Below are positions 31,453 to 59,396 of a stretch of 64,000 bases of DNA, piece after piece. The notes below the pieces were generated by a model. The model was not told where the DNA came from. It saw only the letters and a program-made list of their open reading frames with translations, and made no database searches. Source of the DNA: Saprospiraceae bacterium (lineage in GTDB: Bacteria > Bacteroidota > Bacteroidia > Chitinophagales > Saprospiraceae); the NCBI GenBank assembly GCA_020629255.1, contig JAHDDR010000001.1, positions 8,924-72,923 on the forward strand, read 5' to 3'. The position numbers were made by a program, and so were the translations under genes. Numbering within the stretch: the stretch's first letter is position 1; the number at the start of each line of letters is the position of its first letter.

Positions 31453-32180
31453 AAACTTAGATCAACATTAAGTAATTTTTCTGTACCTAATATCGTATTT
31501 TCTAAATGCCCTTTAATTGTTTTCTCCAAACTTGTTGAAACATTAATTCTCACTTGGCTTTTATTCACTACCCGTATTTTATTTGAACCATTTATATCCT
31601 TAACACCTAAATATTGATATATTTTAGTCAACTCCCCCTCGATATTTTGGATAAATTTTTCAAAAAAAATAATTCTGAAATCACATTTAGTTTCAATAAT
31701 AGGTTTCAATAATGTAGGATATTGGCTTCTTTTGACATAATCAAATGGTGAAACCGACACTTCATTATTCAATGCTGGAGGTGGCACATTATGAATGAAT
31801 ATATCTTCTAATGTTCTTGTTTCTATTTTGTTATCAACACTAAATTTATAGTTAGACAGCAACCTATCATAAGGATTACGTAAAATGATTAAAAATTTTG
31901 CAGCAGGAAATAAATCCAATACTCTTTTAATAACCATTGGTGATTCGATGTAGCTTGTACTTTTCTCTAATATAACTTTTGTACTTTCATCTATATGCGA
32001 AAAATACTTTTCTATATATTTATTATAACAGTATTGGGAAGCATTATTTTTTAAAAAAAACTTCGGCTCTGGCCTTATCGGATAATTAAGTGTTATTTCA
32101 GGGTGTTGCCCTAAAGCCGTAGCTAAAAGTGTACTTCCAGAGCGTTGTCCGCCTAAAATTACTGCAAGATTTTTTTTCAT
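31440..32180 (-). CDS. Sulfotransferase (PAPS-dependent)
   Basis: 246 aa with no signal peptide. 5'-PSB loop VILGGQRSGSTLL. 3'-PB-like motif ILRNPYDRLLSNY. 13-nt overlap with the wecE-like gene. Confidence 0.8.
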   Translation of the reverse strand: MKKNLAVILGGQRSGSTLLATALGQHPEITLNYPIRPEPKFFLKNNASQYCYNKYIEKYFSHIDESTKVILEKSTSYIESPMVIKRVLDLFPAAKFLIILRNPYDRLLSNYKFSVDNKIETRTLEDIFIHNVPPPALNNEVSVSPFDYVKRSQYPTLLKPIIETKCDFRIIFFEKFIQNIEGELTKIYQYLGVKDINGSNKIRVVNKSQVRINVSTSLEKTIKGHLENTILGTEKLLNVDLSFWKS

Positions 32181-36711: not shown

Positions 36712-38144
36712 TCTGCTATATATTTATAAGAATCATCCATGTTTTCCGCTACTGTTTCCCGAAACTCTAAAATGGTTCGGAAAGCTTTAATAGATCCTAT
36801 ATTATTGAATTTGACAAAACCGACAATGGGTTTGTTTTTGTGTTCCGTTTTTTTCAACTCTCTCATTCCTCTTCTAATAATAGCGCTGCCCCAACCTTTC
36901 CCTCGCTCATTTTTATCCAAACTATAGCTAATGATTGCCTCTTCCTTTTTGATATCGAATCTGATTTGTCCTATAGGTTGTTGATTATTTGTAATGACAT
37001 ACAAATAACTATTTTCATCTTTCAATTTATTAAAAAACCATTTCTCATGGCTTTCGTATGGAATAGGCTCTGAATTGTATGATTGCTGCCTTGTTAATGG
37101 ATCATTCGACCATACATGATATAATCGGCAATCTTCTTTTTTTGCCTTTCGTGCATTCATACCTAAAGATTGGAAAATTCGGACAAATCGTTTTTGCTGC
37201 CGGCCATCCATCATTTTATTTTGCTTTGCCAACATAATTCCTAACGTTTTTGCATTGGTGTTAGGGAATTCATTCCAATCGAAAGCCAATTTTTCTTTTA
37301 TGAAATATTGATGGATGTCTTTTTGATTATCTGCTATTGTTTTCAGATATATTTCTCCCCCGCTGCTTAAATATTCGTAAGAAACTGTACTAGGTGTTAA
37401 AATGGCTTTATCGCATTTTCTCATCATGGCAGCCATTTGCTGTGCATTAAGATTTGAAAGAATTTGCACATTAAGTCTTGTTTTATGAAGAAAAGGATCT
37501 AATTCTTTTCTGTGCTTATATGCTCCACCCAATACAATAAAACAATTTTGAACAGAAGGTTCTTTTTCACATTTTTTTAAAACAGAAAGGGTATTATTTT
37601 TGGGATCCGCTCCTCCCAGACAAATAAAAATTCCTTCTTTCCTATTTTCTTTATTTTTATTTATTGCATTATTCCTAAATGGTTTTCTTAATAGGGAAAA
37701 ATCTAAACCAAGACAAAACTGGGTATACGGTTCGAATGAATAGTTTTCTCTTTTAACACCACCTGCATGATTAATAATAATATCTGCAAAAAAATGATAA
37801 TTATAAATATCATCAATACAAACTAAGCGACACCCTTTGTTTTTTATAATTTGTTGGTATTCTGTAATAAAATGATACCCATCCAGAACTACTATTTCGG
37901 GCCCATCTAAATATGTTTCTGCTAGCAGTTTTGCTTCGTGGATATCATTTTCGTTCTCAGACAATTCAACAATTTCCTTGCAAACCTCTAGGATTTGTTT
38001 TTTTAGTGTTGGCAATGGAGTTCTTATCATAAAATGACATTCGAATTCCTCTTGCAACATTTCTGCCAAGGCTAGGGAACGGAAAACATGGCCCAATCCT
38101 ATTTGGGCATTACCGTCCGCTCTGAAAAAAATCTTCTGTTTCAA
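36708..38144 (-). CDS. pseG: Fusion of UDP-2,4-diacetamido-2,4,6-trideoxy-beta-L-altropyranose hydrolase (PseG) with a PseH-like GNAT N-acetyltransferase
   Basis: 478 aa. N-terminus KIFFRADGNAQIGLGHVFRSLALAEML (PseG). The C-terminal ~150 aa carry a GNAT core (WSNDPLTRQQSY...HEKWF...IGQIRF...ERGKGWGSAIIRRG). Confidence 0.75.
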   Translation of the reverse strand: MKQKIFFRADGNAQIGLGHVFRSLALAEMLQEEFECHFMIRTPLPTLKKQILEVCKEIVELSENENDIHEAKLLAETYLDGPEIVVLDGYHFITEYQQIIKNKGCRLVCIDDIYNYHFFADIIINHAGGVKRENYSFEPYTQFCLGLDFSLLRKPFRNNAINKNKENRKEGIFICLGGADPKNNTLSVLKKCEKEPSVQNCFIVLGGAYKHRKELDPFLHKTRLNVQILSNLNAQQMAAMMRKCDKAILTPSTVSYEYLSSGGEIYLKTIADNQKDIHQYFIKEKLAFDWNEFPNTNAKTLGIMLAKQNKMMDGRQQKRFVRIFQSLGMNARKAKKEDCRLYHVWSNDPLTRQQSYNSEPIPYESHEKWFFNKLKDENSYLYVITNNQQPIGQIRFDIKKEEAIISYSLDKNERGKGWGSAIIRRGMRELKKTEHKNKPIVGFVKFNNIGSIKAFRTILEFRETVAENMDDSYKYIAE

Positions 38145-38146
38145 TT

Positions 38147-39460
38147 TTAATTGAGTCTTTTAAATCCTCCGTGGCACACGGGTCCTTCTAGAACTGCGAA
38201 TACATCTTCGCCTTCTTCAAAGGTTCTTATTTTTCGGAATACTTTTTCTAGTTCGTAGAAATATCTATCTACATGTTCTTCTGTATGGGCTGTACATACA
38301 TATACATTGTTAGATGCTAATATTCCAACTTTCAACATTTCTTGGGTTATGAAGGTCTTATATGCCAACCAATTATCCTTTTTACTTTTGATACTATATG
38401 TGGTCAATGCCGGGAGCCCGGCAGTGCTTACTTCCAGTCCACATTTTTCACCTAATTCTTTCCAGCGTCGTGTTATTTCTTTACCTGTATTTGTTATTGT
38501 TTCCCACGATTTTTCTCGTTCCATTACATTTAAAGTAGCAAGGGCTGCCGCTGGACCAATCCGTTCTGTCCAAAAAGTACTACTGATGAATGTTTTTTGG
38601 GCGGCTTGCATTATTTCTTTTTTGCCTATCACTCCAGTAATGGCGTAACCATTCCCCATTGCTTTTCCAAACATCGCCATATCTGGTTCCACACCATATT
38701 TTTTATGTAACCCTCCAAAAGTTTCCCTAAAACCAGAAGTACATTCATCAAATATCAATATGATATTATTTTCTTTTGTGATTTTTCTGATTTCTTCCAA
38801 ATACCCTGGTTCTGGACCGTGGTTTCTTGAGACTTCCATTTTCAATACACCCAAATCGGGGTTTTCAGAAATAATTTTCCTTACAGCATTAATATCGTTA
38901 TAGTTGAATGGAATGGTTGTATTAACGAGACCTTTCGGAACGCCTGCTGGTTGCAATCCTGGTAACAAATGTCCAGACAGCCCTTCTTCTTCTGATAGGT
39001 TGGTTGATATATACCAATCATGCCATCCATGATAACCACAAATTGCTACCTTGTCTTTTCCGCTTGCCGCTCTGGCTATTCGGATAGCGACAGCATTGGC
39101 TTCTCCTCCTGTCCGGCAAAATCTTGCCATATCTGCCCAAGGGTGCATCGCTATTAATTGTTCTGCGAGGTAAACTTCTTCGGGACAATTGAATGTGGAC
39201 ATATTACCGTCCTGCACCACTTTTCTAACAGCTTCATCCACTTCATCATTACCATAGCCCAAAGCATTTGTACCAATGCCCATAATGGTCATGTCTAGAA
39301 ATTCATTTCCATCCAGATCCCATACCTTACAACCTTTTGCCTTGCTAAAATACGCAGGCCAATTTTCGGGAAGGAACATTTCTGGTCTTTTGGATAACAA
39401 CATTGTTCCACCCGGAATTAGTGTTTTGGCTTTTTTATACAAATCTTGGCCTTTACCCAT
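38147..39460 (-). CDS. Class-III aminotransferase (glutamate-1-semialdehyde aminomutase-like)
   Basis: 437 aa. Shows GGEANAVAIRIARA, IFDECTSGFR and FGKAMGNGY (PLP lysine). Confidence 0.8.
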   Translation of the reverse strand: MGKGQDLYKKAKTLIPGGTMLLSKRPEMFLPENWPAYFSKAKGCKVWDLDGNEFLDMTIMGIGTNALGYGNDEVDEAVRKVVQDGNMSTFNCPEEVYLAEQLIAMHPWADMARFCRTGGEANAVAIRIARAASGKDKVAICGYHGWHDWYISTNLSEEEGLSGHLLPGLQPAGVPKGLVNTTIPFNYNDINAVRKIISENPDLGVLKMEVSRNHGPEPGYLEEIRKITKENNIILIFDECTSGFRETFGGLHKKYGVEPDMAMFGKAMGNGYAITGVIGKKEIMQAAQKTFISSTFWTERIGPAAALATLNVMEREKSWETITNTGKEITRRWKELGEKCGLEVSTAGLPALTTYSIKSKKDNWLAYKTFITQEMLKVGILASNNVYVCTAHTEEHVDRYFYELEKVFRKIRTFEEGEDVFAVLEGPVCHGGFKRLN

Positions 39461-40226
39461 CTTGTTTGTCTTTTTTAATGGATTTTAATAATCCTTCATT
39501 TCGTATAATATTTGAATTTATTGCTTGGATATTCGGATTTTCCAGAATGAAATTGGTGTATTCCATCCATGTCTTATCCATACCCATTTTTTCTACTACT
39601 GCTTTTATCAATTGATAATCTTTAGGTTCATCAACTGTCATCCTTACGTGTTCGTAGTCGTAACCTTCATCAAAATTATCTGACTGGAACAAGGTTCCTC
39701 CTTTGAAGGTTGAATTTCTCCACAAATAAGGTGTTACATGTTCCCTATCTGATAATGCTGTTGATTCGTTCCATGCTTTTTCTAAAGCTTCGAACTTAAA
39801 CACTTCTACATCCTGTCCATCCGGATAAGTGGGGTTCAAAACATTCGAACCATAATCTAATTGGTTATCCACTACAAATCGGATAACCTTATCTACTAGT
39901 GTTGCATCCAATAATGGGCAATCTGATGTTACCCTAACTACATAATCTGGCTCTTCGTTTTTGACAGCTTGATAGAAACGATCCAAAACATCATTTTCGG
40001 AACCTCTATAACAAGAAATCCTTTTTGTTGTTGCATAGGCTTCTATTTCAGCATCCTCGGGGTTGGTTGTCGTAGCTATTATAAGTTTGGAAATACATTC
40101 CGATTTTTGTACTCTTATAAGATGTAAATCCAACAACGTATGATTACCTATCTTTTTAAATATTTTTTGAGGCAATCTCGTTGACCCTAGCCTTGCTTGT
40201 GTTACTGCTATTATTTTCATGACCAA
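39453..40226 (-). CDS. SpsF-like cytidylyltransferase-domain protein (candidate CMP-nonulosonate synthetase)
   Basis: 257 aa. The N-terminus KIIAVTQARLGSTRLPQKI and VRVTSDCPLLD fit the CTP_transf_3/SpsF pattern. No canonical PseF-type gene is visible in the operon. Confidence 0.65.
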   Translation of the reverse strand: MVMKIIAVTQARLGSTRLPQKIFKKIGNHTLLDLHLIRVQKSECISKLIIATTTNPEDAEIEAYATTKRISCYRGSENDVLDRFYQAVKNEEPDYVVRVTSDCPLLDATLVDKVIRFVVDNQLDYGSNVLNPTYPDGQDVEVFKFEALEKAWNESTALSDREHVTPYLWRNSTFKGGTLFQSDNFDEGYDYEHVRMTVDEPKDYQLIKAVVEKMGMDKTWMEYTNFILENPNIQAINSNIIRNEGLLKSIKKDKQDG

Positions 40227-41086
40227 TTTGACGGATTTAACAAATCAATTTCATCTACATGGATGGAATCGATTTCTTTTTGGATTTTTTTATCCAATGG
40301 TTGTGCTATTGCATTTATATTTTGAAGAAATTGTTTTTTGTTATCCACCCCTATAAGTATCCCATCAATACAAGGATTCGCTAATACATATTTTAAGGCA
40401 AGATCTGCCATCGGAATATCGTGTTTTTGGGTTATAGATTTTATTTTTTCTAAATTTTTAGATAGGGGTTTTAATTTTTCGGGGAGGTTGCTTATTTGTT
40501 TAAAAAACAAGCCTTGTAAAAACACAGAACGAACATGTATTATTTTTCCTTTTTCCTTTGCTTCTTCCAGCAAGGTTCCCCGTTGAGTATTATTGTCGAG
40601 TAAATTATACGGTAATTGGATAACGTCAATACTATCGTTTTTTAATACTTCTTCAAATTGTTCGTTGGTATAAATGGAAACTCCTATGTTTTTTATTTTC
40701 CCTTTGCTTTTTTGGTTTTCCAGTTGATTAATCAGGTGTTTATATTTTATATAATCGTTGAATGAATGAAACAAATATGCCCAAATATTCCGAGTGCCTA
40801 TCCTCTCTAGTGTCTTATTGATTAGTGATTCTATATTTTGTATTCTTTCTTCGTTTGATTTAAACTTTGTTATGATATCAAAATATCGATTATTCTTTTG
40901 ATGATAATCACCAATAATATCAGATGCATTCCCATAGGCATCTGCTGTATCCAGCAAAGTAAGACCTTCTGCATGAGCTACATCTAAAATTTGATGGACC
41001 TCTTTTTTTTGAACTTTACCCTTCGGGTTATTAATTCCATAATCCAATCCGAACTGAACTGTTCCTAAAATAATTTTATCAATCAT
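40217..41086 (-). CDS. Aldo/keto reductase
   Basis: 289 aa. Shows ILGTVQFGLDYGI, LDTADAYGNAS and IQLPYNLLD. Confidence 0.8.
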   Translation of the reverse strand: MIDKIILGTVQFGLDYGINNPKGKVQKKEVHQILDVAHAEGLTLLDTADAYGNASDIIGDYHQKNNRYFDIITKFKSNEERIQNIESLINKTLERIGTRNIWAYLFHSFNDYIKYKHLINQLENQKSKGKIKNIGVSIYTNEQFEEVLKNDSIDVIQLPYNLLDNNTQRGTLLEEAKEKGKIIHVRSVFLQGLFFKQISNLPEKLKPLSKNLEKIKSITQKHDIPMADLALKYVLANPCIDGILIGVDNKKQFLQNINAIAQPLDKKIQKEIDSIHVDEIDLLNPSNWS

Positions 41087-42264: not shown

Positions 42265-43296
42265 TCAAGTGGTTTTGGAAGTTATGGTAAAATTGGGATC
42301 AACATGTTCTTTAATCAAAATTCTAAGTTCTTCGGCTGAAAGCCATTCTGTATTATCTCCTGAATTATAACTGAAGCCAAGAGGCACTTTCTCCGCTCCA
42401 AATGCTTCAACATAATCATTGATATCCCAATTAAGAACTGAGGGCAAAATAGTATAGTATTTTCCTAAATCATATGTGTTATAGGAATCCGACGCTGTAA
42501 TCATTTCTTCATGAATTTTTTCACCTGGTCTAATTCCCACGAATCGATGTTCAATATCCGGAGCAATTGCTTTTGCTATTTCCGTAATTTTATACGAAGG
42601 GATTTTTGGGACAAACAACTCCCCTCCCCAAGCGTGGCTCAAAGCATGGAACACCATGTCTACTCCGCCATCAAGAGAAATATTGAATCGAGTCATGTTC
42701 GGATCGGTAATTGGCAAGAATCCTTCATTCCTTTTTTTGATAAAGAATGGAATTACAGAACCATTCGAACCCATCACGTTCCCATATCGGACAACAGAAA
42801 ACCTAATTGGATTCTTTCCCCTTATATTATTGGCGGCAATGAACAATTTATCCGAAGTAAGTTTTGTAGCTCCATATAAATTAATTGGAGCACAAGCTTT
42901 GTCTGTTGATAAAGCCACTACTCTTTTTACTTGTGTCTGCAAACAAGCATGAATCACATTTTCTGCTCCTCCAATATTGGTTTTTATACATTCTGAAGGA
43001 TTGTACTCTGCAATAGGAACATGCTTCATTGCCGCTGCATGGATCACATAATCTATACCATTCATGGCACGTATCATCCTTTCCTTATCTCTAACATCCC
43101 CGATAAAAAACCTTATTGCCGGATAATCCTGAACCGGATATTGTTGTGCCATTTGGAATTGTTTCTGCTCATCCCTTGAAAATATAACTACTCTCGCAAC
43201 TTTTGGAAAGTCTGAAAAAATTCTTTTTGTAAGTGCTTTTCCCAAAGATCCTGTTCCTCCTGTTATAAGAATGGATTTTCCGTTTAAGTCTAACAT
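42265..43296 (-). CDS. pseB: UDP-N-acetylglucosamine 4,6-dehydratase (inverting)
   Basis: 343 aa. Shows LNGKSILITGGTGSLGKALTKRI, IFSRDEQKQ, STDKACAPINLYGATK and VRYGNVMGSNGSVIP. Confidence 0.9.
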   Translation of the reverse strand: MLDLNGKSILITGGTGSLGKALTKRIFSDFPKVARVVIFSRDEQKQFQMAQQYPVQDYPAIRFFIGDVRDKERMIRAMNGIDYVIHAAAMKHVPIAEYNPSECIKTNIGGAENVIHACLQTQVKRVVALSTDKACAPINLYGATKLTSDKLFIAANNIRGKNPIRFSVVRYGNVMGSNGSVIPFFIKKRNEGFLPITDPNMTRFNISLDGGVDMVFHALSHAWGGELFVPKIPSYKITEIAKAIAPDIEHRFVGIRPGEKIHEEMITASDSYNTYDLGKYYTILPSVLNWDINDYVEAFGAEKVPLGFSYNSGDNTEWLSAEELRILIKEHVDPNFTITSKTT

Positions 43297-43335: not shown

Positions 43336-44529
43336 TTATATAAAAACCAATTTCACTTTCTCCCTACTACAATGACCCGACCACATAGACAAGGTGTTCG
43401 CTCCACAATCAGCTATAATGATCCAATCCTTTTCTTGTATTTCGGGCAACTCGACGTCTCTTCTTAAAAAATCTCCTGAGAAACATAGTGGTCCGCCAAT
43501 ATCATATTTTTTATTTCCCTTTTCTTTCAAATTCCCTTCCGGTGATACAACAGAAATTTGATGATAGGGTGGGTGGGTGCTATAAATTTCTCTAGGAAAT
43601 AAATCTGCCCCTACATGTATAAGTGCTATCGGGGCTTCTGTATAATCTAGAACGTATTCTACACGACTTGCTACAAATGCTGCATGTGCATGTACAAAGC
43701 GTCCGTATTCTGTAATAATTTTATAATTGAAAAAAATATTAGGGCATTTACTTTCCAACAAATTTACAAAGTCTTCCAAGCCTTGTTGGATTCCTTCTTC
43801 CATTTTAGCAGAAAATCCGCCACCTATATCTAATATTTTTATTTTATTTTTTTGACGGGCATTTATTTCTTCTGCTATCTCATAAATCCTTTTTATGGCT
43901 TCTATATGTCCCTCAAGTTTTCCGATTTCGGAACCAGCATGAACGTGTAGTGCATATACATTGTCTATAGCTAGGGCATATTTTATTATTATTTCTTTTT
44001 GATTTATCGGTATTCCAAATTTGGAACGGTTATTACTTACATTATAAATGCCCGGAGCGCCCGTATCTACCAAGGGATTTATCCGAATTCCAATTTTAAG
44101 GTTTTTTGCTTTTTTTATTCTTTCTAATTCTGAAAAACAATTTACATTTAAAAGTAATCCTTTAAAATGTTCATTACAATAATTAATTTCTTCTTGGGTT
44201 TTTACCGGAGAATCAAAAACAATTTTTTCGGCTGGACAGCCTGCTTTTTTTGCTAGCATCACTTCTTCAAAAGATGCTGCTTCCAAACCAAAACCCTTAT
44301 TTACAATATGGGAAAGTACACGCGGCTCGTTCTGTGTCTTAATGGCTATTGCATGTAGTGCATTATCTGGAAAAAGTTCTTTTAGATGGGAGAGTCTATT
44401 ATTTAAAATATTTTTGGAATATATATAATAGGATTTCTCTGTACTTGTTTTTTCTTTTTCAAGTATCGTTTTAAAAATTTCGGATCTCTCCTTGTTGTTA
44501 TACCTAATTAAAACTGCCTGCTTTATCAT
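43336..44529 (-). CDS. Fold-type III PLP-dependent decarboxylase (Orn/Lys/Arg/DAP decarboxylase family), substrate unknown
   Basis: 397 aa. Shows HAIAIKTQNEP (PLP lysine, compare YAVKAN), GFGLEAASFEEVMLAKKAG, LDIGGGF, ITEYGRF and GGPLCFSGDFL (conserved Cys). 26-nt overlap with the upstream CDS. Confidence 0.8.
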   Translation of the reverse strand: MIKQAVLIRYNNKERSEIFKTILEKEKTSTEKSYYIYSKNILNNRLSHLKELFPDNALHAIAIKTQNEPRVLSHIVNKGFGLEAASFEEVMLAKKAGCPAEKIVFDSPVKTQEEINYCNEHFKGLLLNVNCFSELERIKKAKNLKIGIRINPLVDTGAPGIYNVSNNRSKFGIPINQKEIIIKYALAIDNVYALHVHAGSEIGKLEGHIEAIKRIYEIAEEINARQKNKIKILDIGGGFSAKMEEGIQQGLEDFVNLLESKCPNIFFNYKIITEYGRFVHAHAAFVASRVEYVLDYTEAPIALIHVGADLFPREIYSTHPPYHQISVVSPEGNLKEKGNKKYDIGGPLCFSGDFLRRDVELPEIQEKDWIIIADCGANTLSMWSGHCSREKVKLVFI

Positions 44530-45898
44530 CTAAAATTTTCATCAACTGCCGATCCCAATCGTACCTTACGGCAATTTCTTTTTGTTGTAATTGATAGATA
44601 TTATAAGCACCAATTGCTACCCGAATAAAAGCACCGCAACTATACCTTACCGGTTGCCCTATAAATATTTTATTAAATTTCCCTATCCTTATTTCTTCGG
44701 ATGTAATTTCGGCAAAAAAATCTTTCAGTTCGTCATACTCCATGTACTCTCCGTTAGATTTTTTAACCCTAAAAGAAATAATACTCCTATTGGTTCTTTC
44801 TTGGTTCGGCATTAATTCGAGGTTATTGCTTTTTGCTATGCATTCCCGAACAATAGCATTCCAAAGATTAATTACATCGTTTGATTTTTCTCTTGGAATT
44901 TTATTGAAGCGTTCCATTTCGTCCAAACCAATTTCCCATCTTAATAAAAGTCCTTTATTTTTCTTTTTTGGAAAATATTGGGCTAATGCAGAAAATTCAT
45001 CTGTAAAATCATAATAGGAAAATATTTTATCGAAACCCTTTAAAAGATCTTTTTGCACTTGTGCCTTATTTAATTTTTCGCACATTTCATTGGGCACTAA
45101 CATAACACCACAAAACGGAGGGGCCATATAAAACTTCGAACCCGTAATCATAACCATGCACCCCATGTCAATTAATTCGTTGACAAGTTTCTTGGAGTTT
45201 CTGAACTGGCATAAATCCACGACCCACATGACATCTTTGCTCAGCTTGGGTATGATGGTCACATCATCTTCTATACCGGATTTGCTTCCAATAACCAAGG
45301 CTCCAATTACTGATTTATCAGAATGAGTTTTGATCCTCAAACTGATGTCATTTTCATTTCGGTTTACTTCTCCATTATTATTACGAGCCGTATAGCGTTT
45401 CATACTAATATCGTAACCGCTATTGATGTCTTCTCCTTTTTCTATTGCTTCGTCGAATTGGTTTCTGCCTGCGTAGTATTTCCCCAGATATGCCAACTGA
45501 CTTCCCGAACCCAATTCTTCCGGGCAAGTTAAAAGTAGTTCTATGGGTTTTTTAGGGTAGAGGATATTGGAAAACATGGCGGGCAAATACGCTAGGTCGC
45601 TTCCCGAAGGACCGAATACCAATCCGAATTTATCTTTTCCTTCGTAATTCAATAATTTTTTAATCCGATATGCCTGTTCTTTCCTGATTTCCAAAAAAGA
45701 TTCTTCATAACGGGTAAAATCTTCATTTAAGAATTTTCCTGTTATGGGATTTAATGGGGAACAGGTACAAGAGCCACGTAAAAAGATGCCTTCATACTCC
45801 ATCGGATTGATGTGATATTTATTGAATCCATCTTCTAATATATCCAACCTTTCATCGCCTCCGCTTACCACCAAATGGCTACTTGTTTCTACATTCAT
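44504..45898 (-). CDS. Uncharacterised class-V-aminotransferase-fold (fold-type I) PLP enzyme
   Basis: 464 aa. Shows VFGPSGSDLAYL, VVDLCQ (the Asp-x-x-Gln of class V enzymes) and ITGSKFYMAPPFCG. The last parallels the S-x-H-K..GP.G.G PLP-lysine motif of cysteine-desulfurase-like enzymes. No closer family recognised. Confidence 0.5.
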   Translation of the reverse strand: MNVETSSHLVVSGGDERLDILEDGFNKYHINPMEYEGIFLRGSCTCSPLNPITGKFLNEDFTRYEESFLEIRKEQAYRIKKLLNYEGKDKFGLVFGPSGSDLAYLPAMFSNILYPKKPIELLLTCPEELGSGSQLAYLGKYYAGRNQFDEAIEKGEDINSGYDISMKRYTARNNNGEVNRNENDISLRIKTHSDKSVIGALVIGSKSGIEDDVTIIPKLSKDVMWVVDLCQFRNSKKLVNELIDMGCMVMITGSKFYMAPPFCGVMLVPNEMCEKLNKAQVQKDLLKGFDKIFSYYDFTDEFSALAQYFPKKKNKGLLLRWEIGLDEMERFNKIPREKSNDVINLWNAIVRECIAKSNNLELMPNQERTNRSIISFRVKKSNGEYMEYDELKDFFAEITSEEIRIGKFNKIFIGQPVRYSCGAFIRVAIGAYNIYQLQQKEIAVRYDWDRQLMKILDDKAGSFN

Positions 45899-45907
45899 GT
45901 TTTCTCT

Positions 45908-47203
45908 TTATAATTTCCAATACTCCATTTCCTCATCTTTTCTTTTCAAATCGTAGCAATTCTTAAGATCGATGAGTATACCTTCTTCTTTGGACAATCT
46001 CTTGAAATAAGATATGTCCAAGTTTTTATATTCATTATGGGCAACCGCTACAATAATAGCATCGTAATCTTTAGAAGGTTCATCTATCAGGGTAAGGTTG
46101 TATTCATGTGCTACTTCGTTGGGCGAAGCCCAACAATCCATTACATGGACATTGATGGAGTAATCCATGAGTTCTTTTACCAAATCAACCACTTTGGAAT
46201 TCCTAATATCGGAGACATTCTCCTTGAAGGTGATTCCCTTGACCAATACTTTGCATTCACTTGGATTTTTCCCTTTTGAAATCAGCATTTGAACCAATTT
46301 CTTGACTACAAATGCGGGCATATAATCATTGATTCTCCGTCCTGCCGCAATAACTTGCGGATCGTAACCCAATTGTTTGGATTTGTGCATGAGGTAGTAC
46401 GGATCAACACCAATGCAGTGCCCTCCTACCAAGCCCGGATAAAATTTGAGGAAATTCCATTTCGTGCCTGCGGCTTTCAATACTTCTTGTGTATCAATAT
46501 TCATTTTATCGAATATAATCGCCAACTCGTTCATGAGGGAAATGTTCAAATCCCTTTGAGTATTTTCGATCACTTTTGCAGCCTCGGCTACTTTTACTGA
46601 AGAAGCCCGATGGGTTCCTGCCTTGATAATATGGGAATACACTTTATCGATTTCTTCCAAAGATTCATCATCACACCCTGATACTATTTTTAAAATAGTT
46701 GTCAATGTTCGTTCCTTATCCCCCGGATTGATCCTCTCAGGAGAATAACCGAATTTAAAATCCGAATTTCTTTTCAGCCCAGATTTTTCTTCGATAATCG
46801 GCAAACAATCATCTTCAGTACAACCGGGATATACCGTAGATTCAAAAACGACATAATCCCCTTTTTTAATGACTTGTCCTACACTACCAGATGCCTTAAG
46901 CAAAGGTGTCAAATCGGGTATTTTATGTTCATTGATATCTGTGGGTACAGCCACAACGAAAAAGTGAGCTTCCTTCATTTTTTCGATATTTGTCGTAAAT
47001 TCGATATCTGTTCCTTCAAATGCTTGAGTATCCAATTCTTTGGAAGGATCGATACCTTTTCTCATCAAATCGACCCTTTCATCATTGATATCGAAACCTA
47101 TCACACTAAAATAACGTGCAAATTCCAATGCTATCGGTAGACCAACATAACCTAAACCGACAACAGCAATTTTCTTTTTCTTATCTAATAATTCTTGATA
47201 CAT
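45908..47203 (-). CDS. UDP-N-acetylhexosamine 6-dehydrogenase (TviB/WbpO/WecC-type nucleotide-sugar dehydrogenase)
   Basis: Start set at M41 of the ORF (ATG 47203). This puts the Rossmann motif KIAVVGLGYVGLPIALEF near the N-terminus and removes an 83-nt overlap with the upstream gene. Catalytic-Cys motif GGHCIGVDP. Confidence 0.85.
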   Translation of the reverse strand: MYQELLDKKKKIAVVGLGYVGLPIALEFARYFSVIGFDINDERVDLMRKGIDPSKELDTQAFEGTDIEFTTNIEKMKEAHFFVVAVPTDINEHKIPDLTPLLKASGSVGQVIKKGDYVVFESTVYPGCTEDDCLPIIEEKSGLKRNSDFKFGYSPERINPGDKERTLTTILKIVSGCDDESLEEIDKVYSHIIKAGTHRASSVKVAEAAKVIENTQRDLNISLMNELAIIFDKMNIDTQEVLKAAGTKWNFLKFYPGLVGGHCIGVDPYYLMHKSKQLGYDPQVIAAGRRINDYMPAFVVKKLVQMLISKGKNPSECKVLVKGITFKENVSDIRNSKVVDLVKELMDYSINVHVMDCWASPNEVAHEYNLTLIDEPSKDYDAIIVAVAHNEYKNLDISYFKRLSKEEGILIDLKNCYDLKRKDEEMEYWKL

Positions 47204-47240
47204 CCTAAATCGGGTTATCCCTAAATTCGTTTTTGATTCT

Positions 47241-48905
47241 TTAAAATCCCCAATTGAAACTAATCCAAGCAAAGGTGTTTTTTCCTTCCATGAAACTTGG
47301 TGAATATGAATCTGTTTGATCATCCATGTCTGAAATGGACAACATCGCCTTCACATACATATCATTAAAGATTTCGTATTGTACTTCTCCTCCGAATTCT
47401 GTTTTGCTATATCTAACTTCTTCCATAAATGGAATTCCCTTAAAGCCACCAAACCCGGGGAGATGCCCATAATCGTCGGGACCTTTTCTTTGTTTGAGAT
47501 AAAAGGCTTCAATTCTTAATTTGGCCAAAGGTTTGAAATTCACCTCAATATATAATTCATCTGCATTGTCTGTTAGATAATGCCCTAGGTTATAGGAATT
47601 GTTGGCGAATGTTGTTGCTTCTAAACCATGTTTGTAAGCATAGGGGTTGGAACGTGTGTATTCGGCCACCAAACCAATATTTGATTTTGCTACATTTCGA
47701 ACTGCTGTTCCTAGCTTAAACCCTAATTCATTCCGTTGACGTTCTTTGTCGAAGAAGACCGAAAATTTCATTTCATCTATAAAGAGTGTTCCGTAAAGGT
47801 GTACATTCTTAATATTCCTGGAACTGATGTCCAAAAATAATTGACCATTCTGTCCTGCTTTGTTGGATTGGCTACTTTGTGCATGATCCACTGAACGGTA
47901 AAAGAAGAATGGAATCAAGTATGCGGGGTTGAAACTATAATCAGAGTATACGGTCGAATTACCGAAAGAAATGTGCAAGCCTTTCGTTGGTTTGAGGGTA
48001 AACATATTGGCTGCTATTGCTTTTTGCCTAAATATATACCGTGTTCCTCCGTTGGATGCTATATAGGTTCTGGTACTATCTATGACATCCGAATTGAGCC
48101 ATCCATGAATGTAATTAAATTCGAGCCATTCGATGGGTTTTACTTGGAGTTTGATTTGTGGGATGGCTGGAAAATTACCTGAAAAAATATTGGCTCCTTT
48201 ATTTGTGTTTCCCCACATGAATTGGTCTTGAATCAAACCGATGGTTCCCCAATTCCACGAATATGTAATACCTCCTCTTACCTCACTAAAATCTGTCAAA
48301 TCTTTTTCTCTATTAGGTCGATTAACTCCCACAGTTAGCGTATTGAAATAATTGGGGTCGATCAATTCTTGATTTTCAGAAACATCCCTGAAACTAAAAT
48401 AAGCCGAGAATCCTTTTCCTAAATAGGCGTTCACTTCCCCACCGTATGTTCTTCTATAGATATTGTCGGTCGCCAAGAGTTCCAGGCCTATTATCGGATT
48501 GACCGATACTTGAAATTTATCCGAACTAAAAAAGAGGGCATCCAAACGTTTTATTTCACTGGTATGGAACCATGTTTTTTTCGAGAAGAATTTTTCTTCG
48601 TTATATACAGCGTTCAATTCTTCCCGTTTGGCTTCTTTTCCAAAATCTTTTAGGAAGAAATCCAATTCTTTGCTTTGCCTTTTATTCAATTCCTCTCTTT
48701 TCCCTTCCAATTCTACGAGGCGATTTGCAATGAACCGTCGAGAATATGGCTTTATAGCCGAATTGATTTCTATTAATTTTTGAGCTGCGACTTCATCCAA
48801 AAATTCATAGATGGAATATTTGGATGTGTGTTGGTATATGTCTTGTGCATTTGTTGCACCAGCCAACAAAATCAATATCCAAATTGAAAAAATTCTAAAC
48901 ACCAT
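47241..48905 (-). CDS. wzi: Capsule-assembly Wzi-family outer-membrane protein
   Basis: Start set at M28, giving the signal peptide MVFRIFSIWILILLAGATNAQ. The N-terminal helical segment IYEFLDEVAAQKLIEINSAIKPYSRRFIANRL is like Bacteroidota Wzi proteins. The body is beta-strand rich and ends SFNWGF. Confidence 0.6.
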   Translation of the reverse strand: MVFRIFSIWILILLAGATNAQDIYQHTSKYSIYEFLDEVAAQKLIEINSAIKPYSRRFIANRLVELEGKREELNKRQSKELDFFLKDFGKEAKREELNAVYNEEKFFSKKTWFHTSEIKRLDALFFSSDKFQVSVNPIIGLELLATDNIYRRTYGGEVNAYLGKGFSAYFSFRDVSENQELIDPNYFNTLTVGVNRPNREKDLTDFSEVRGGITYSWNWGTIGLIQDQFMWGNTNKGANIFSGNFPAIPQIKLQVKPIEWLEFNYIHGWLNSDVIDSTRTYIASNGGTRYIFRQKAIAANMFTLKPTKGLHISFGNSTVYSDYSFNPAYLIPFFFYRSVDHAQSSQSNKAGQNGQLFLDISSRNIKNVHLYGTLFIDEMKFSVFFDKERQRNELGFKLGTAVRNVAKSNIGLVAEYTRSNPYAYKHGLEATTFANNSYNLGHYLTDNADELYIEVNFKPLAKLRIEAFYLKQRKGPDDYGHLPGFGGFKGIPFMEEVRYSKTEFGGEVQYEIFNDMYVKAMLSISDMDDQTDSYSPSFMEGKNTFAWISFNWGF

Positions 48906-48954
48906 ATTCCTATTTGTTAGATCAAGAGAAGATTTCCGTACACATTGCCGTTGT

Positions 48955-50334
48955 TTAAAATGCATTTTCTCTCGTTTTTTTCCCAAATACTGTTAGGAAA
49001 ATAATTTTCAGATCCAAGAAGAAAGACCAGTTCCTCAAGTACCATACATCGTGTTTTGTTCGGCCTTCTTTGGCTTCTTTTGTTTCTGTGGGACCTCGGA
49101 AACCATTGACTTGTGCCCAGCCTGTAATGCCAGGTTTGGTGTAATGGCGTAGGATATAATTTTCCATTTCGTTTCCTAATTCCTTGTCCAAGTAAATTGG
49201 GTGAGGTCTGGGCCCTACGATACTCATGTCTCCTTTGAACACATTGAAAAATTGAGGCATTTCGTCTAAGTTGGTTCTTCTCATGAAGGCTCCGACTTTG
49301 GTTATCCGGCTATCATTCTTGGTGGCTTGTTTTGTATCCGCTTCATCATTAAGAACCATGGAACGAAATTTATGGCAAACAAAATGCTTGTTTTTATATC
49401 CTACTCTTTTTTGGTTGAACATGGCGGGACCGGGAGATTGTATCTTAATCAACAATGCCAGTAAAGGGTAAAGCCAAGACATGATAAATACTATGACGAA
49501 GAATGAAAAGACAATATCGAAGGCTCTTTTTAGAAAACGGTTTCTGAGTCGGGCAATGTCTTCATCTTTTACCGATATGATTGGGTATCCGTTATGCACT
49601 TCCATTTTCACCCCTCTTGAAATCAATTCTACTTCGAGGGGAATGATTTTGAAGTCGATGAAATTCAATAAGGCATAATTTTTCAATTCTCTAATTTCTT
49701 TCCCCCTCATTTCGTTGGAAGCATAGAGAATCAAATTGACTTCATTTTCTTTGATAATGGGATAAATATCTTCCGGCTCGCCTATTTTTTTATATCCTTT
49801 AGGAATATTTTTTCCGATGGATCCTATATATTTTACTTTATTCAGGTGGGCATCGCTGATGGTTTTCTCTACTTTGGGAAGCACATCACAATATCCTATT
49901 ACCAAGTAGTTCAATGTTTCTACTCTTCCTATATGGGGAAGAAATCGTTTCAATATAAATCTTCCTAGAAGAAGGAGGATGATCAACAATACATAAAAGG
50001 CGGGAAAGAATTTGAATTCCCATCCTGTTTCATACAATAAAAAATATATAATACCGAAACCTATGAAGTGCATCATATAATTTTTCAGTACGCTTTTTAT
50101 CTCTACTCTAAAGGTTGTATATTCGAAACGTCCGTATAATTTATTGGCCAGGGTTAGAGTAGAGAACCAAAGGAGGTTGACAATGATCCAGAGGGTCATG
50201 TAATCTTCTTTAAAGATGGAAATATCCCATACTTTATTAAAGTCATCCAATACAATGATCGAGGATGCAAAGAAGGATACATTTAATCCTATCAGGTCAA
50301 TTAATATTCTTATCAGTTTTTTTGAATGCAGCAT
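48955..50334 (-). CDS. Polyprenyl-phosphate sugar phosphotransferase (WbaP/WcaJ-type initiating enzyme)
   Basis: 459 aa. N-terminal TM bundle, then the Bac_transf core: KRAFDIVFSFFVIVFIMSWLYPLLALLIKIQSPGPAMFNQKRVG and DEMPQFFNVFKGDMSIVGPRP. Confidence 0.9.
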   Translation of the reverse strand: MLHSKKLIRILIDLIGLNVSFFASSIIVLDDFNKVWDISIFKEDYMTLWIIVNLLWFSTLTLANKLYGRFEYTTFRVEIKSVLKNYMMHFIGFGIIYFLLYETGWEFKFFPAFYVLLIILLLLGRFILKRFLPHIGRVETLNYLVIGYCDVLPKVEKTISDAHLNKVKYIGSIGKNIPKGYKKIGEPEDIYPIIKENEVNLILYASNEMRGKEIRELKNYALLNFIDFKIIPLEVELISRGVKMEVHNGYPIISVKDEDIARLRNRFLKRAFDIVFSFFVIVFIMSWLYPLLALLIKIQSPGPAMFNQKRVGYKNKHFVCHKFRSMVLNDEADTKQATKNDSRITKVGAFMRRTNLDEMPQFFNVFKGDMSIVGPRPHPIYLDKELGNEMENYILRHYTKPGITGWAQVNGFRGPTETKEAKEGRTKHDVWYLRNWSFFLDLKIIFLTVFGKKTRENAF

Positions 50335-59383: not shown

Positions 59384-59396
59384 GACAGCACTTTTT

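What the first reader, a model, noticed from the sequence alone, without database searches (positions are those of the whole stretch)
43336..45898. Overlapping pair of PLP enzymes of unknown substrate embedded between the sugar dehydrogenase and pseB
The 464-aa protein shows the class-V aminotransferase-fold signature (VVDLCQ and ITGSKFYMAPPFCG) but matches no family I recognise. Its 3' end overlaps by 26 nt the start of a 397-aa fold-type-III decarboxylase. The decarboxylase has all the hallmark motifs of the Orn/Lys/DAP decarboxylase family: IAIKTQ, DIGGGF, EYGRF and GGPLCFSGD.

Amino-acid decarboxylases are not normal components of glycan loci. Here the pair lies 9 nt downstream of a UDP-HexNAc 6-dehydrogenase and 39 nt upstream of pseB, so it is clearly part of the operon.

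One plausible role is synthesis of a non-standard amine or amino-acid-derived substituent. It could be amide-linked to the uronic acid made next door or used as an N-acyl group on the nonulosonic acid or 4-amino sugar. PLP enzymes supply ethanolamine or serinol phosphate for amidated glucuronate in Campylobacter capsules in a similar way. No ATP-grasp or amide ligase is evident in the window, so the attachment enzyme is unknown.
Basis: partly seen in the sequence, partly recalled or inferred. Interest (0 to 1): 0.7.

Follow-up and report, generated by a model that had tools for sequence, protein, structure and literature searches.

The report
Orphan two-enzyme PLP cassette in glycan locus
Two overlapping genes in a large sugar-polymer locus encode an unclassified vitamin-B6 enzyme and a lysine-pathway-like decarboxylase; the pair recurs, sometimes fused into one protein, from marine bacteria to algae and water moulds, and it probably makes an unusual amine for decorating surface sugars, though nobody has yet tested what it makes.

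Summary
There is a 464-aa ORF (44504-45898, minus strand) and a 397-aa ORF (43336-44529, minus strand). They overlap by 26 nt, sit 9 nt after a TviB-like UDP-HexNAc 6-dehydrogenase and 39 nt before PseB, and all quoted motifs are present.

The 464-aa protein ("X") matches no Pfam or NCBIfam model and no PDB sequence. A confident AlphaFold model (pLDDT 88.7) is a fold-type-I PLP enzyme, closest to class-V aminotransferases. It carries the Asp-x-x-Gln, Lys (27 residues after the Asp) and C-terminal Arg signature.

The 397-aa protein ("DC") is a fold-type-III decarboxylase derived from LysA but is not LysA. It scores 202 bits against a 297.9 cut-off, and an invariant Phe replaces the Glu of CE[ST]GD.

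X is followed directly by DC in 63 of 81 related loci across seven or more bacterial lineages. The two are fused in oomycetes and a chrysophyte. X is also fused to asparagine synthetase, and once to a GAD/CSAD-like decarboxylase.

Neighbours vary, but they are recurrently glycan genes and carboxylate-amine ligases (TupA-type ATP-grasp, AsnB-like, FemAB-like).

Best reading: X makes a non-standard amino acid, DC decarboxylates it, and the resulting amine is amide-linked to a glycan. The substrate is unknown.

The parts
44504..45898 (-). X: 464-aa fold-type-I (class-V-like) PLP-dependent enzyme, a member of an undescribed family. Predicted PLP residues are D228, Q231 and K255. The predicted carboxylate-binding residue is R426. 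Further invariant motifs are G13-G-D-E-R17, R41-G-S-C-T45, P97-S-G-S-D and S205-K-S-G.
   Evidence: No Pfam, NCBIfam or PDB sequence match. AlphaFold2 pLDDT 88.7 and pTM 0.89. Foldseek against the PDB returns class-V aminotransferases, IscS and AEP transaminase at E 6e-12 to 1e-9 and TM 0.53-0.67. Invariant residues come from a 42-sequence alignment. The D-to-K spacing is 27 in 189 of 226 full-length relatives.
43336..44529 (-). DC: 397-aa fold-type-III PLP decarboxylase, a LysA-derived subfamily. It has PLP Lys K64, H197, G236-G-G and E274, an invariant R313..Y316, and G-P-L-C349-F350-x-G-D with Phe where diaminopimelate decarboxylase has Glu.
   Evidence: Pfam PF02784 (4e-36) and PF00278 (3e-12). 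lysA TIGR01048 scores 202 bits, below the 297.9 cut-off. Best PDB match is 2p3e, a diaminopimelate decarboxylase, at 9e-42. Motif conservation was measured in 64 and in 120 homologues.
44504..44529 (-). 26-nt overlap between the 3' end of X and the 5' end of DC, which probably provides translational coupling.
   Evidence: and the junction sequence. The same 26-29 nt overlap occurs in L005, L006, L007, L009 and L010, and overlaps or gaps of 12 nt or less occur in most other loci.
45908..47323 (-). TviB-like UDP-N-acetylhexosamine 6-dehydrogenase, the probable source of the uronic acid carboxylate. It forms a conserved block with X and DC in the closest relatives. The true start is probably the internal Met at residue 41, because the called ORF overlaps the upstream gene by 83 nt.
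   Evidence: NCBIfam NF011729 TviB 507 bits (cut-off 592) and TIGR03026 392 bits. The block Bac_transf, outer-membrane protein, dehydrogenase, X, DC is syntenic in L005, L006, L007, L009 and L010. The N-terminal sequence was read.

Best explanation
X and DC form a translationally coupled, self-contained two-step PLP module that makes a non-proteinogenic primary amine.

Step 1 (inferred). X is a class-V-like aminotransferase. It converts a common 2-oxo acid, probably one carrying an anionic side group, into an unusual alpha-amino acid. Asparagine may be the amino donor. Less likely, X makes the amino acid by beta- or gamma-replacement.

Step 2 (inferred from family membership and active-site residues). 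DC descends from diaminopimelate decarboxylase. It has lost the Glu that holds the distal ammonium group of diaminopimelate but kept an invariant Arg/Tyr pair. It removes the alpha-carboxylate to give an amine that may still carry a distal acidic group.

Step 3 (inferred from context). A lineage-specific carboxylate-amine ligase couples the product by an amide bond to a glycan. In this window the most likely acceptor is the HexNAc-uronic acid made by the TviB-like dehydrogenase encoded 9 nt upstream. The ligase in this window is not identified.

Shown: the fold of X, family membership of DC, catalytic motifs, gene coupling, conservation of the pair and natural fusions. Not shown: substrate, product, reaction order and attachment site.
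For: 1. X has the fold and catalytic signature of class-V PLP enzymes. The Asp lies at the end of strand 224-229 and Lys255 follows strand 248-252, with a spacing of 27. The segment 'FIRVAIGAYN' resembles the C-terminal carboxylate-binding Arg motif. Distant relatives carry the canonical DAAQ or DACQ.

2. DC has every catalytic motif of the fold-type-III decarboxylases.

3. X is directly followed by DC on the same strand in 63 of 81 loci. These come from Saprospiraceae, Flavobacteriales, Planctomycetia, Pirellulaceae, Gemmatimonadales, Calditrichota, Pseudomonadales, a cyanobacterium and Myxococcales. No other gene family occurs in more than 19 loci.

4. Natural fusions exist. X-DC fusions occur in Aphanomyces and Epipyxis and keep GPLCFxGD. 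One protein, P0290, fuses a non-homologous group-II decarboxylase to X. Decarboxylation is therefore the conserved partner activity.

5. The group-II domain of P0290 is closest to the acidic-amino-acid decarboxylases GAD65/67, CSAD and GADL1, at E 5e-81 to 2e-73.

6. X is fused to a bona fide AsnB-type asparagine synthetase in Pyramimonas (509 bits against a cut-off of 499). This is consistent with asparagine as amino donor, as for the class-V enzyme AGT1 in plants (my own knowledge).

7. Amide-forming enzymes flank the pair.
- A TupA-type ATP-grasp lies directly upstream in L026 and L052 and nearby in L001/L023.
- AsnB-like proteins lacking the N-terminal Cys occur in L015, L025, L030 and L032.
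- A FemAB-like acyltransferase occurs in 15 loci.
- The TupA-like ATP-grasp domain of Cj1438 is the enzyme that amidates glucuronate with ethanolamine-P or serinol-P made by PLP enzymes in C. jejuni (PMC11800379, PMC11800397).

8. The block dehydrogenase, X, DC is conserved in the closest relatives while the downstream pathway varies between Pse-type, Leg/Neu-type and WbpB/D/E-type. Glucuronyl C5-epimerase-like genes and sulfotransferases recur near the pair in other phyla.

9. Glycan families are the most frequent among 149 distinct neighbour clusters.
Against: - No ligase of any of the three kinds is present in this window.
- Only about 10 of 63 pair-containing loci have a nucleotide-sugar 6-dehydrogenase within 10 kb.
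- In many streamlined Flavobacteriales MAGs the pair is flanked by housekeeping or sulfur-oxidation genes, and it occurs in eukaryotes, so a free metabolite is possible.
- X occurs without an adjacent DC in about 18 loci.
- Transamination has not been distinguished from other class-V chemistries such as lyase, epimerase or replacement.
- In the HMMER alignment the invariant Arg of DC is offset by one position from the Arg of DAPDC.
- The 'acidic substrate' inference rests on one fusion protein and on residue analogy.
Confidence: 0.45

Rival explanations
1. Conjugate decarboxylation. An ordinary amino acid is first linked through its side chain or amino group to a carboxylate, either on a sugar nucleotide or on the growing glycan. 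DC then removes the free alpha-carboxylate of the conjugate. This is what the DAPDC-like enzymes SbnH, AcsE, PvsE and FslC do with citryl-amino acids, and what BtrK does with an ACP-bound glutamate. X would make or modify the amino acid part.
For: DC gives near-full-length but sub-threshold matches to FslC (69.5 bits) and to the EPS-associated TIGR03099 (107 bits). It also matches BtrK (7e-18). Replacing the Glu that binds the distal ammonium with an invariant Phe fits a substrate whose distal amine is acylated. Ligases are adjacent to or fused with X. The logic of ligase plus DAPDC-like decarboxylase plus an amino-acid-forming PLP enzyme is established in NIS siderophore clusters (my own knowledge).
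Against: The alternative fused decarboxylase, P0290, is of the GAD/CSAD type, and those enzymes act on free amino acids. The pair occurs with no ligase nearby in most loci, including this window. No carrier protein is conserved next to it.
Confidence: 0.2
2. A free small metabolite unrelated to the glycan. The cassette makes an osmolyte, polyamine precursor or amino-sulfonate, for example taurine from cysteate, beta-alanine or 1,3-diaminopropane. On this view its position in this locus is incidental or regulatory.
For: Neighbour genes are very heterogeneous, with 187 Pfam families among 149 neighbour clusters. The family occurs in oomycetes, a chrysophyte, a prasinophyte and a red alga. In about 10 Schleiferiaceae and Cryomorphaceae loci the divergent neighbours look like sulfide:quinone oxidoreductase, persulfide dioxygenase-rhodanese and a TauE-like exporter; these assignments are by eye from the sequences, not by Pfam. 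A PAPS-reductase-family gene lies beside the pair in L001. Sulfotransferases are abundant in this window and in L001, L002 and L026.
Against: In this window the pair is packed 9 nt and 39 nt from sugar-nucleotide genes with no terminator between them. The block dehydrogenase, X, DC is conserved among the closest relatives. Glycan genes are the only recurrent theme. The sulfur-gene adjacency is confined to related genomes and is on the opposite strand.
Confidence: 0.15
3. Reverse order. DC first decarboxylates a standard acidic amino acid (Asp to beta-alanine, or Glu to GABA). X then acts as an omega-transaminase, as the class-V enzyme PhnW does on 2-aminoethylphosphonate. The resulting aldehyde is reduced to a hydroxy-acid acyl group such as 3-hydroxypropanoyl or 4-hydroxybutanoyl for an amino sugar or nonulosonic acid.
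For: AEP transaminase is among the best structural matches of X. The pair lies next to Pse genes here and in L011, L020 and L052. An aldo/keto reductase is encoded in the same operon at 40217-41086.
Against: The AsnB-X fusions suggest an amino donor or asparagine use, not an amino acceptor. X occurs without DC next to a FemAB-like transferase. No acyl-activating enzyme is conserved next to the pair.
Confidence: 0.1
4. Housekeeping lysine synthesis. DC is the organism's LysA and X is a novel tetrahydrodipicolinate/LL-DAP aminotransferase.
For: LysA is the closest characterised family, with TIGR01048 as the best NCBIfam hit and DAPDC structures as the best PDB hits. Some sources label homologues 'diaminopimelate decarboxylase'.
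Against: The score of 202 bits is below the 297.9 equivalog cut-off. The Glu of CE[ST]GD is Phe or Tyr in 119 of 120 homologues. NCBI names the Portibacter orthologues only 'type III PLP-dependent enzyme domain-containing protein'. Only 210 relatives of X were found among one genome for each of 185,579 species. The cassette sits in accessory glycan loci. In one fusion DC is replaced by a GAD/CSAD-type decarboxylase, which cannot act on the D-centre of DAP.
Confidence: 0.03

Closest known systems
Campylobacter jejuni HS:2 glucuronamide system (Cj1436 decarboxylase, Cj1437 aminotransferase, Cj1438 C-terminal TupA-like ATP-grasp amidoligase, Cj1435 phosphatase)
   Same: PLP enzymes encoded inside a glycan locus make a small amine that is amide-linked to a uronic acid carboxylate. 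A TupA-type ATP-grasp lies next to the X-DC pair in L001/L023, L026 and L052 (PMC11800379, PMC11800397).
   Different: In C. jejuni the two PLP enzymes work in parallel on different substrates, L-serine phosphate and dihydroxyacetone phosphate. Here the two enzymes are coupled and fused, which implies a sequential pathway. DC is fold-type III rather than fold-type I (the fold of Cj1436 is from my own knowledge and was not tested). X belongs to no described family. No ligase or phosphatase is identifiable in this window.
Diaminopimelate decarboxylase (LysA, TIGR01048)
   Same: This is the closest sequence and structure family of DC. It shares the PLP-Lys, His, GGG and Glu motifs, the catalytic Cys, and an Arg...Tyr motif in the region that binds the distal carboxylate.
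   Different: DC scores below the equivalog cut-off. The Glu of CE[ST]GD is an invariant Phe, and EPGR is E[FY]G[RQ]. DC is always coupled to X and has a sporadic, accessory distribution.
DAPDC-like conjugate decarboxylases of secondary metabolism (FslC, SbnH, AcsE, PvsE, BtrK)
   Same: They are LysA-like fold-type-III enzymes recruited to accessory pathways, where they work together with a ligase and an amino-acid-forming PLP enzyme.
   Different: The match to FslC is far below its cut-off (69.5 against 500 bits), and BtrK is a weaker match than DAPDC. No NIS synthetase or carrier protein is conserved next to the pair.
Class-V aminotransferases and related enzymes (Pfam PF00266: AGT/SGAT, SerC-like, PhnW, IscS/SufS)
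   Same: They share the fold, the Asp-x-x-Gln...Lys signature and its spacing, and the C-terminal Arg motif.
   Different: No significant sequence or profile match exists. Identity in structural alignments is 10-15% with TM about 0.55-0.67. X is some 60-100 residues longer and has its own invariant N-terminal motifs (GGDER, RGSCT). No conserved Cys lies in the position of the desulfurase catalytic loop.

Membership tests
Class-V aminotransferase family (Pfam PF00266 Aminotran_5) | Significant match to the family profile | tested here: not met
   No Pfam or NCBIfam hit at E 0.01 or better. A profile of 42 homologues finds no PDB chain at E 0.1 or better.
Class-V aminotransferase family (Pfam PF00266 Aminotran_5) | Fold-type-I architecture with a large alpha/beta domain and a C-terminal small domain | tested here: met
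   AlphaFold2 pLDDT 88.7. There are 772 Foldseek PDB matches at E 0.001 or better, and the top ones are class-V enzymes with probability 1.00.
Class-V aminotransferase family (Pfam PF00266 Aminotran_5) | Asp that binds the pyridine nitrogen and a Schiff-base Lys about 26 residues later, in the motifs D-x-x-Q and [ST]-x-[HQRS]-K | tested here: met
   D228, Q231 and K255 are invariant in 42 sequences. The spacing is 27 in 189 of 226 relatives and in all fusion proteins checked. The strand-helix-strand topology fits. The register to IscS D180/Q183/K206 was recovered by hhalign but is not significant. PLP binding was not shown experimentally.
Class-V aminotransferase family (Pfam PF00266 Aminotran_5) | Transaminase chemistry, as opposed to lyase, desulfurase or epimerase chemistry | not testable with these tools
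   There is only indirect evidence. No conserved Cys lies in the desulfurase loop region, and the AsnB fusions suggest an amino donor.
Fold-type-III Orn/DAP/Arg decarboxylases (PF02784 + PF00278) | Both domains above the gathering score, and the PLP-Lys, GGG, Glu and Cys motifs | tested here: met
   125 and 47 bits against cut-offs of 23.4 and 23. K64, G236-238, E274 and C349 are invariant in 64 homologues.
Diaminopimelate decarboxylase LysA (TIGR01048 equivalog) | Score above the curated equivalog cut-off | tested here: not met
   202.1 bits against 297.9. The DC domain of the fusion protein P0306 scores 195 bits.
Diaminopimelate decarboxylase LysA (TIGR01048 equivalog) | Glu of the C-E-[ST]-G-D motif, which contacts the distal amino group of DAP (its role is from my own knowledge) | tested here: not met
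   Phe350 aligns with the Glu of 2p3e, 2yxx, 4xg1 and 2qgh. The position is Phe or Tyr in 119 of 120 homologues.
Diaminopimelate decarboxylase LysA (TIGR01048 equivalog) | Being the sole lysA of the genome | not testable with these tools
C. jejuni-type uronate amidation system | ATP-dependent TupA-like ATP-grasp amidoligase encoded with the amine-forming PLP enzymes | tested here: not met
   It is absent from the window (Pfam scans; tblastn). It is present next to X-DC in L001/L023, L026 and L052 only.
C. jejuni-type uronate amidation system | Homology of X or DC to Cj1437 or Cj1436 | not tested
DC is fold-type III, so it cannot be an orthologue of a fold-type-I decarboxylase (the fold of Cj1436 is from my own knowledge).
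NIS-siderophore conjugate decarboxylases (FslC, NF041039) | Score above the curated cut-off | tested here: not met
   69.5 bits against 500.

The most novel reading that the evidence does not exclude
X-DC is a previously unrecognised biosynthetic route found in both bacteria and eukaryotes. It would lead from a central 2-oxo acid, or from serine plus sulfite, to an anionic amine such as taurine (via cysteate) or a related amino-sulfonate or omega-amino acid.

X would found a new PLP enzyme family. DC would be a LysA descendant retooled for an acidic side chain. Marine bacteria would use the product to build zwitterionic or sulfonated surface glycans, and algae and oomycetes would use it as a free metabolite.

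The hints are weak:
- the only non-homologous decarboxylase found fused to X is of the GAD/CSAD/GADL1 type;
- DC keeps an invariant Arg/Tyr pair but has lost the Glu that binds the distal amine;
- sulfotransferase-rich loci, a PAPS-reductase-family gene and sulfide-oxidation/TauE-like genes lie next to the pair in several lineages.
Probability: 0.1. Interest if true: 0.85.

Novelty: new variant of a known kind. Interest (0 to 1): 0.6.

Why it matters
X represents a large protein family, with 1,851 cluster representatives at E 0.001 or better. It has no Pfam or NCBIfam model, no solved structure and no tested member.

X is locked to a decarboxylase by gene order, by translational overlap and by repeated independent gene fusions, in organisms from Bacteroidota to oomycetes. 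That degree of conservation marks a real and unassigned piece of metabolism.

If the product is an amine decoration of uronic-acid-containing or sulfated glycans, it would add a building block and its genes to bacterial glycan chemistry. It would also help explain how charge is tuned on marine polysaccharides, and it would give annotators a rule to stop calling these decarboxylases 'diaminopimelate decarboxylase'.

The work is directly testable. Two soluble enzymes can be expressed and screened, and the natural fusions offer ready-made bifunctional proteins.

Tried and rejected
1. Sequence-level assignment of X failed. Pfam, NCBIfam, phmmer and a profile search against the PDB all returned nothing.

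I treat that as a lead, not a test.

3. I searched for a conserved third gene by all-against-all clustering of 1,132 neighbour ORFs. Nothing beyond DC is conserved. The next most frequent families are a TseH-like/DUF6695 protein (19 loci), a FemAB-like protein (15), and several families in 15 or fewer loci.

4. The phosphonate route (phosphonopyruvate to phosphonoalanine to AEP) has no support. No ORF with the PEP-mutase motif EDK-x5-NS occurs in any of the 84 loci held at the time. This is a crude regex test.

5. The protein upstream of X in the Calditrichota locus L031 gave a weak phmmer hit to AsnB-like proteins (26 bits). Pfam did not confirm it, so I dropped it.

6. The three no-Pfam proteins of about 560-590 aa in the window were examined as candidate ligases.
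- 13068-14741 and 47241-48986 are mutually related and look like outer-membrane proteins.
- 56762-58510 looks like a lipoprotein hydrolase.
- 32347-34107 has only a faint GT28-C-like signal.
None resembles an ATP-grasp.

7. Literature searches for a decarboxylase of this type in O-antigen or capsule loci, and for a bacterial cysteate decarboxylase, found no description of this pair.

Full report
**Observation**

The window carries, on the minus strand, a 464-aa ORF (44504-45898, called X here) and a 397-aa ORF (43336-44529, called DC). They overlap by 26 nt. X begins 9 nt after the stop of a 471-aa ORF (45908-47323). DC ends 39 nt before a 343-aa ORF (42265-43296).

- In X: VVDLCQ at residue 226 and ITGSKFYMAPPFCG at 251.
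- In DC: IAIKTQ at 61, DIGGGF at 234, EYGRF at 274 and GGPLCFSGD at 345.

The upstream gene is a nucleotide-sugar 6-dehydrogenase closest to TviB (507 bits; equivalog cut-off 592). The downstream genes pass the PseB and PseC equivalogs. No terminator-like site lies on the minus strand between 47323 and 42265.

**What X is**

X matches no Pfam or NCBIfam model. It matches no PDB chain by sequence, and a 42-sequence profile finds none either.

It has 646 homologues in the word-indexed search. Every one that carries a name is called 'hypothetical'. A full profile search of 1.84 billion cluster representatives finds 1,851 at E 0.001 or better and 727 at E 1e-30 or better.

An AlphaFold2 model built on the alignment is confident (mean pLDDT 88.7, pTM 0.89). 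Foldseek against the PDB gives 772 matches at E 0.001 or better. The best are fold-type-I PLP enzymes of the class-V group:
- an uncharacterised aminotransferase (3f0h),
- ureidoglycine aminotransferases,
- 2-aminoethylphosphonate transaminase,
- a SerC-like protein,
- IscS/SufS,
- alanine-glyoxylate aminotransferase.

These score E 6e-12 to 1e-9 and TM 0.53-0.67, at only 10-15% identity.

The alignment shows an invariant D228-x-C-Q231 at the end of strand 224-229. An invariant T-G-S-K255-F follows strand 248-252. The Asp-to-Lys spacing of 27 holds in 189 of 226 full-length relatives. More distant members carry the textbook class-V 'DAAQ' or 'DACQ'. 'FIRVAIGAYN' (R426) resembles the C-terminal Arg motif that binds the substrate carboxylate in class-V enzymes. 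That motif knowledge is my own.

X also has invariant features of its own: G-G-D-E-R17, R41-G-S-C-T, P-S-G-S-D and S-K206-S-G. No conserved Cys lies where desulfurases have theirs.

X is therefore a PLP enzyme of the class-V structural group, but it is not a member of PF00266 by the family's own test.

**What DC is**

DC has both domains of the fold-type-III Orn/DAP/Arg decarboxylases. Its nearest family is LysA, but at 202 bits it falls short of the 297.9-bit equivalog cut-off. The best solved relatives are diaminopimelate decarboxylases (2p3e, 9e-42). BtrK and N-citrylornithine decarboxylase are much weaker matches.

Residue-level alignments to four DAPDC structures show that the catalytic set is kept: PLP-Lys, His, GGG, Glu and Cys. 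The Glu of C-E-[ST]-G-D is Phe350, and EPGR is EYGR. Across 64 cassette-linked homologues the Phe, R313 and Y316 are invariant. Across the 120 best database homologues the motif is GPLC[F/Y]xGD in 119, and never Glu.

NCBI's pipeline names the Portibacter orthologues only 'type III PLP-dependent enzyme domain-containing protein'. DC is a LysA-derived paralogue with an altered distal pocket.

**The pair is a conserved cassette**

A scan of one genome for each of 185,579 species found 210 relatives of X. The 80 loci fetched come from these lineages:
- Saprospiraceae
- several Flavobacteriales families
- Planctomycetia
- Pirellulaceae
- Gemmatimonadales
- Calditrichota
- Pseudomonadales
- a cyanobacterium
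- Myxococcales

With four loci fetched by exact look-up, 81 loci had an intact X. In 63 of these X is followed immediately, on the same strand and usually with an overlap or a gap of a few bases, by a DC homologue. Clustering all 1,132 neighbour ORFs showed that no other family is present in more than 19 loci.

**Gene fusions confirm the link**

Long members of the X family include the following:
- X-DC fusions, with DC still carrying GPLCFxGD. These include the 1157-aa proteins of the oomycetes Aphanomyces euteiches and A. cochlioides and a protein of the chrysophyte Epipyxis.
- Asparagine-synthetase-X fusions. One is in the prasinophyte Pyramimonas, from an MMETSP transcriptome. The AsnB part passes the asparagine synthase B equivalog at 509 bits against 499.
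- One fusion of X to a group-II, fold-type-I decarboxylase (P0290).

Two unrelated kinds of decarboxylase are thus found fused to X. That is strong evidence that amino-acid decarboxylation is the obligatory partner reaction. The group-II domain is most similar to the acidic-amino-acid decarboxylases GAD65/67, CSAD and GADL1 (E 5e-81 to 2e-73), and next to diaminobutyrate decarboxylases.

**Context**

The whole window is one very large glycan region. It contains:
- two Wzy-like polymerases and two Wzx-like flippases;
- many glycosyltransferases;
- five sulfotransferases and a sulfatase-like protein;
- heparinase II/III-like and glucuronyl C5-epimerase-like proteins;
- GDP-fucose genes;
- a Pse pathway (PseB, PseC, a PseG-GNAT fusion and PseI).

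No ATP-grasp, AsnB-like or FemAB-like protein is present.

In the closest relatives (61-64% identity, Saprospiraceae and a Maribacter MAG) one block is syntenic with the window: initiating transferase, outer-membrane protein, TviB-like dehydrogenase, X, DC. The genes after DC differ between loci. They are WbpB/D/E-like, Leg/Neu-like or Pse-like. This ties the pair to the uronic acid rather than to the nonulosonic acid.

In other lineages the pair is flanked by enzymes that make amide bonds:
- A TupA-type ATP-grasp lies directly upstream in a Pirellulaceae locus (L026) and a Pseudomonadales locus (L052), and nearby in a Planctomycetia locus (L001/L023).
- AsnB-like proteins whose N-terminal Cys is replaced (MSGIGG, MAGICG) occur in four Flavobacteriales loci.
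- A FemAB-like acyltransferase occurs in 15 loci. These include the loci where X occurs without DC.

The TupA-like ATP-grasp domain of C. jejuni Cj1438 is the enzyme that amidates glucuronate with ethanolamine phosphate or serinol phosphate. Those amines are made by the PLP enzymes Cj1436 and Cj1437 (PMC11800397, PMC11800379).

Among 149 distinct neighbour clusters, glycosyltransferases, flippases, methyltransferases, sulfotransferases, epimerases and asparagine-synthase-like proteins are the most frequent. The set as a whole is very heterogeneous, with 187 Pfam families. In many streamlined Flavobacteriales MAGs the neighbours are housekeeping genes, a TseH-like/DUF6695 gene, or what look like sulfide-oxidation and TauE-like genes.

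**Mechanism proposed**

The most economical reading is a two-step pathway.

First, X makes an alpha-amino acid that the cell does not otherwise have. Were that not so, X would be unnecessary. Transamination of a common 2-oxo acid is the most likely chemistry. The AsnB fusions suggest asparagine as donor.

Second, DC removes the alpha-carboxylate. Three features suggest an anionic or at least non-basic side chain: the invariant Arg/Tyr of DC, the loss of the Glu that binds the distal ammonium, and the GAD/CSAD-type alternative partner.

Third, the amine is coupled to a carboxylate by a ligase that differs between lineages. Here the acceptor is probably the HexNAc-uronic acid.

I put this at 0.45. 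Three points are inferred rather than shown: the identity of the substrate, the order of the two reactions and the acceptor.

**Rivals**

- DC decarboxylates an amino acid already conjugated to the glycan or to another acid, as in NIS siderophore pathways (0.2).
- The cassette makes a free metabolite, and its place in the locus is incidental (0.15).
- The order is reversed, with X acting as an omega-transaminase (0.1).
- The pair performs housekeeping lysine synthesis (0.03). This is disfavoured by the sub-threshold score, the Glu-to-Phe change, the rarity of the cassette and the GAD/CSAD-type replacement.

A phosphonate route has no support. No PEP-mutase motif was found in any locus.

**Comparison with what is known, and novelty**

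In logic the system resembles the C. jejuni glucuronamide pathway and the DAPDC-like decarboxylases of siderophore and aminoglycoside pathways. By its parts it is not a member of any of them.
- X fails the sequence test for PF00266.
- DC fails the LysA and FslC equivalogs.
- The ligase that defines the C. jejuni system is missing here.

I found no paper describing the pair. I rate it a new variant of a known kind: PLP-made amine decorations of glycans, built on an undescribed enzyme family. Interest is 0.6. The module is large, conserved, fused in eukaryotes and directly testable, but its chemistry is still unknown and it may turn out to be modest.

Noticed in passing
window 38147-41086 (-); L052:18948-20573: An aldo/keto reductase (40217-41086), a CTP_transf_3 cytidylyltransferase (39453-40226; only 16.6 bits to the PseF equivalog) and a glutamate-1-semialdehyde-aminomutase-like class-III aminotransferase (38147-39460) lie between PseC and a PseG-GNAT fusion (36708-38144). 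In the Pseudomonadales locus L052 the cytidylyltransferase and the aldo/keto reductase are fused into one 542-aa protein just after PseB and PseC, so they probably act together. No canonical PseF was seen in the window.
   Followed up: partly
window 6586-63658 (-), for example 17380-19053, 19864-20994, 20984-23107, 31440-32180, 53393-54313, 55859-56752, 58523-59437, 59397-60728: The region is a glycan super-locus of about 57 kb on one strand. It encodes five sulfotransferases, a sulfatase-like protein, a heparinase II/III-like protein, a glucuronyl C5-epimerase-like protein, an ADH_zinc_N-GFO/IDH/MocA fusion, two Wzy-like and two Wzx-like proteins. This suggests sulfated, glycosaminoglycan-like polymers. 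The same combination (sulfotransferases, ADH-GFO fusion, heparinase II/III) lies next to X-DC in the Planctomycetia locus L001.
   Followed up: partly
window 47241-48986 (-) and 13068-14741 (-): Two distantly related proteins of about 560-580 aa (22% identity, E 4e-9) have no Pfam match. They carry a signal-peptide-like N-terminus and a C-terminal aromatic residue, and look like outer-membrane beta-barrels. The first is conserved (55-72% identity) between the initiating transferase and the dehydrogenase in Saprospiraceae loci.
   Followed up: partly
window 45908-47323 (-): The called dehydrogenase ORF overlaps the upstream gene by 83 nt, and its Pfam match starts at residue 50. The real start is probably the Met at residue 41 (MYQELLDKKKKIAVVGLGYVG).
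   Followed up: partly
window 32347-34107 (-): A 586-aa protein with no significant Pfam match (a faint Glyco_tran_28_C signal at E 0.018) lies just downstream of PseI and a Wzx-like flippase. It is a candidate nonulosonic-acid transferase.
   Followed up: no
L042, L044, L047, L049-L051, L054, L059, L060, L062-L064, L066, L067, L069, L072, L077, L079, L083 (gene directly upstream of X): A 365-aa protein with a TseH-like (papain/NlpC-P60-like) domain and a DUF6695 C-terminal domain sits directly upstream of X-DC on the same strand in 19 Flavobacteriales loci. It may be a third component acting as an amidase or transamidase.
   Followed up: partly
L049, L051, L057, L059, L062, L067, L072, L077, L079, L083 (upstream, opposite strand): By eye from the sequences, genes resembling sulfide:quinone oxidoreductase, a metallo-beta-lactamase-rhodanese (persulfide dioxygenase-like) fusion and a TauE/SafE-like permease lie divergently next to the TseH-like/X/DC genes in Schleiferiaceae and Cryomorphaceae MAGs. 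This could be shared ancestry only.
   Followed up: no
P0297, P0299, P0382 (Pyramimonas), P0357 (Aphanomyces), P0320 (Epipyxis), P0295 (Galdieria partita), P0290: The X family extends into eukaryotes, as fusions to asparagine synthetase, to the DC-type decarboxylase or to a GAD/CSAD-type decarboxylase. Many members also carry unexplained N-terminal extensions of 100-230 aa with no Pfam match.
   Followed up: partly
L002:19635-20918, L087:15068-16393: A DUF7033 protein recurs a few genes from X in two unrelated loci, in L087 directly after an AsnB-like amidotransferase.
   Followed up: no
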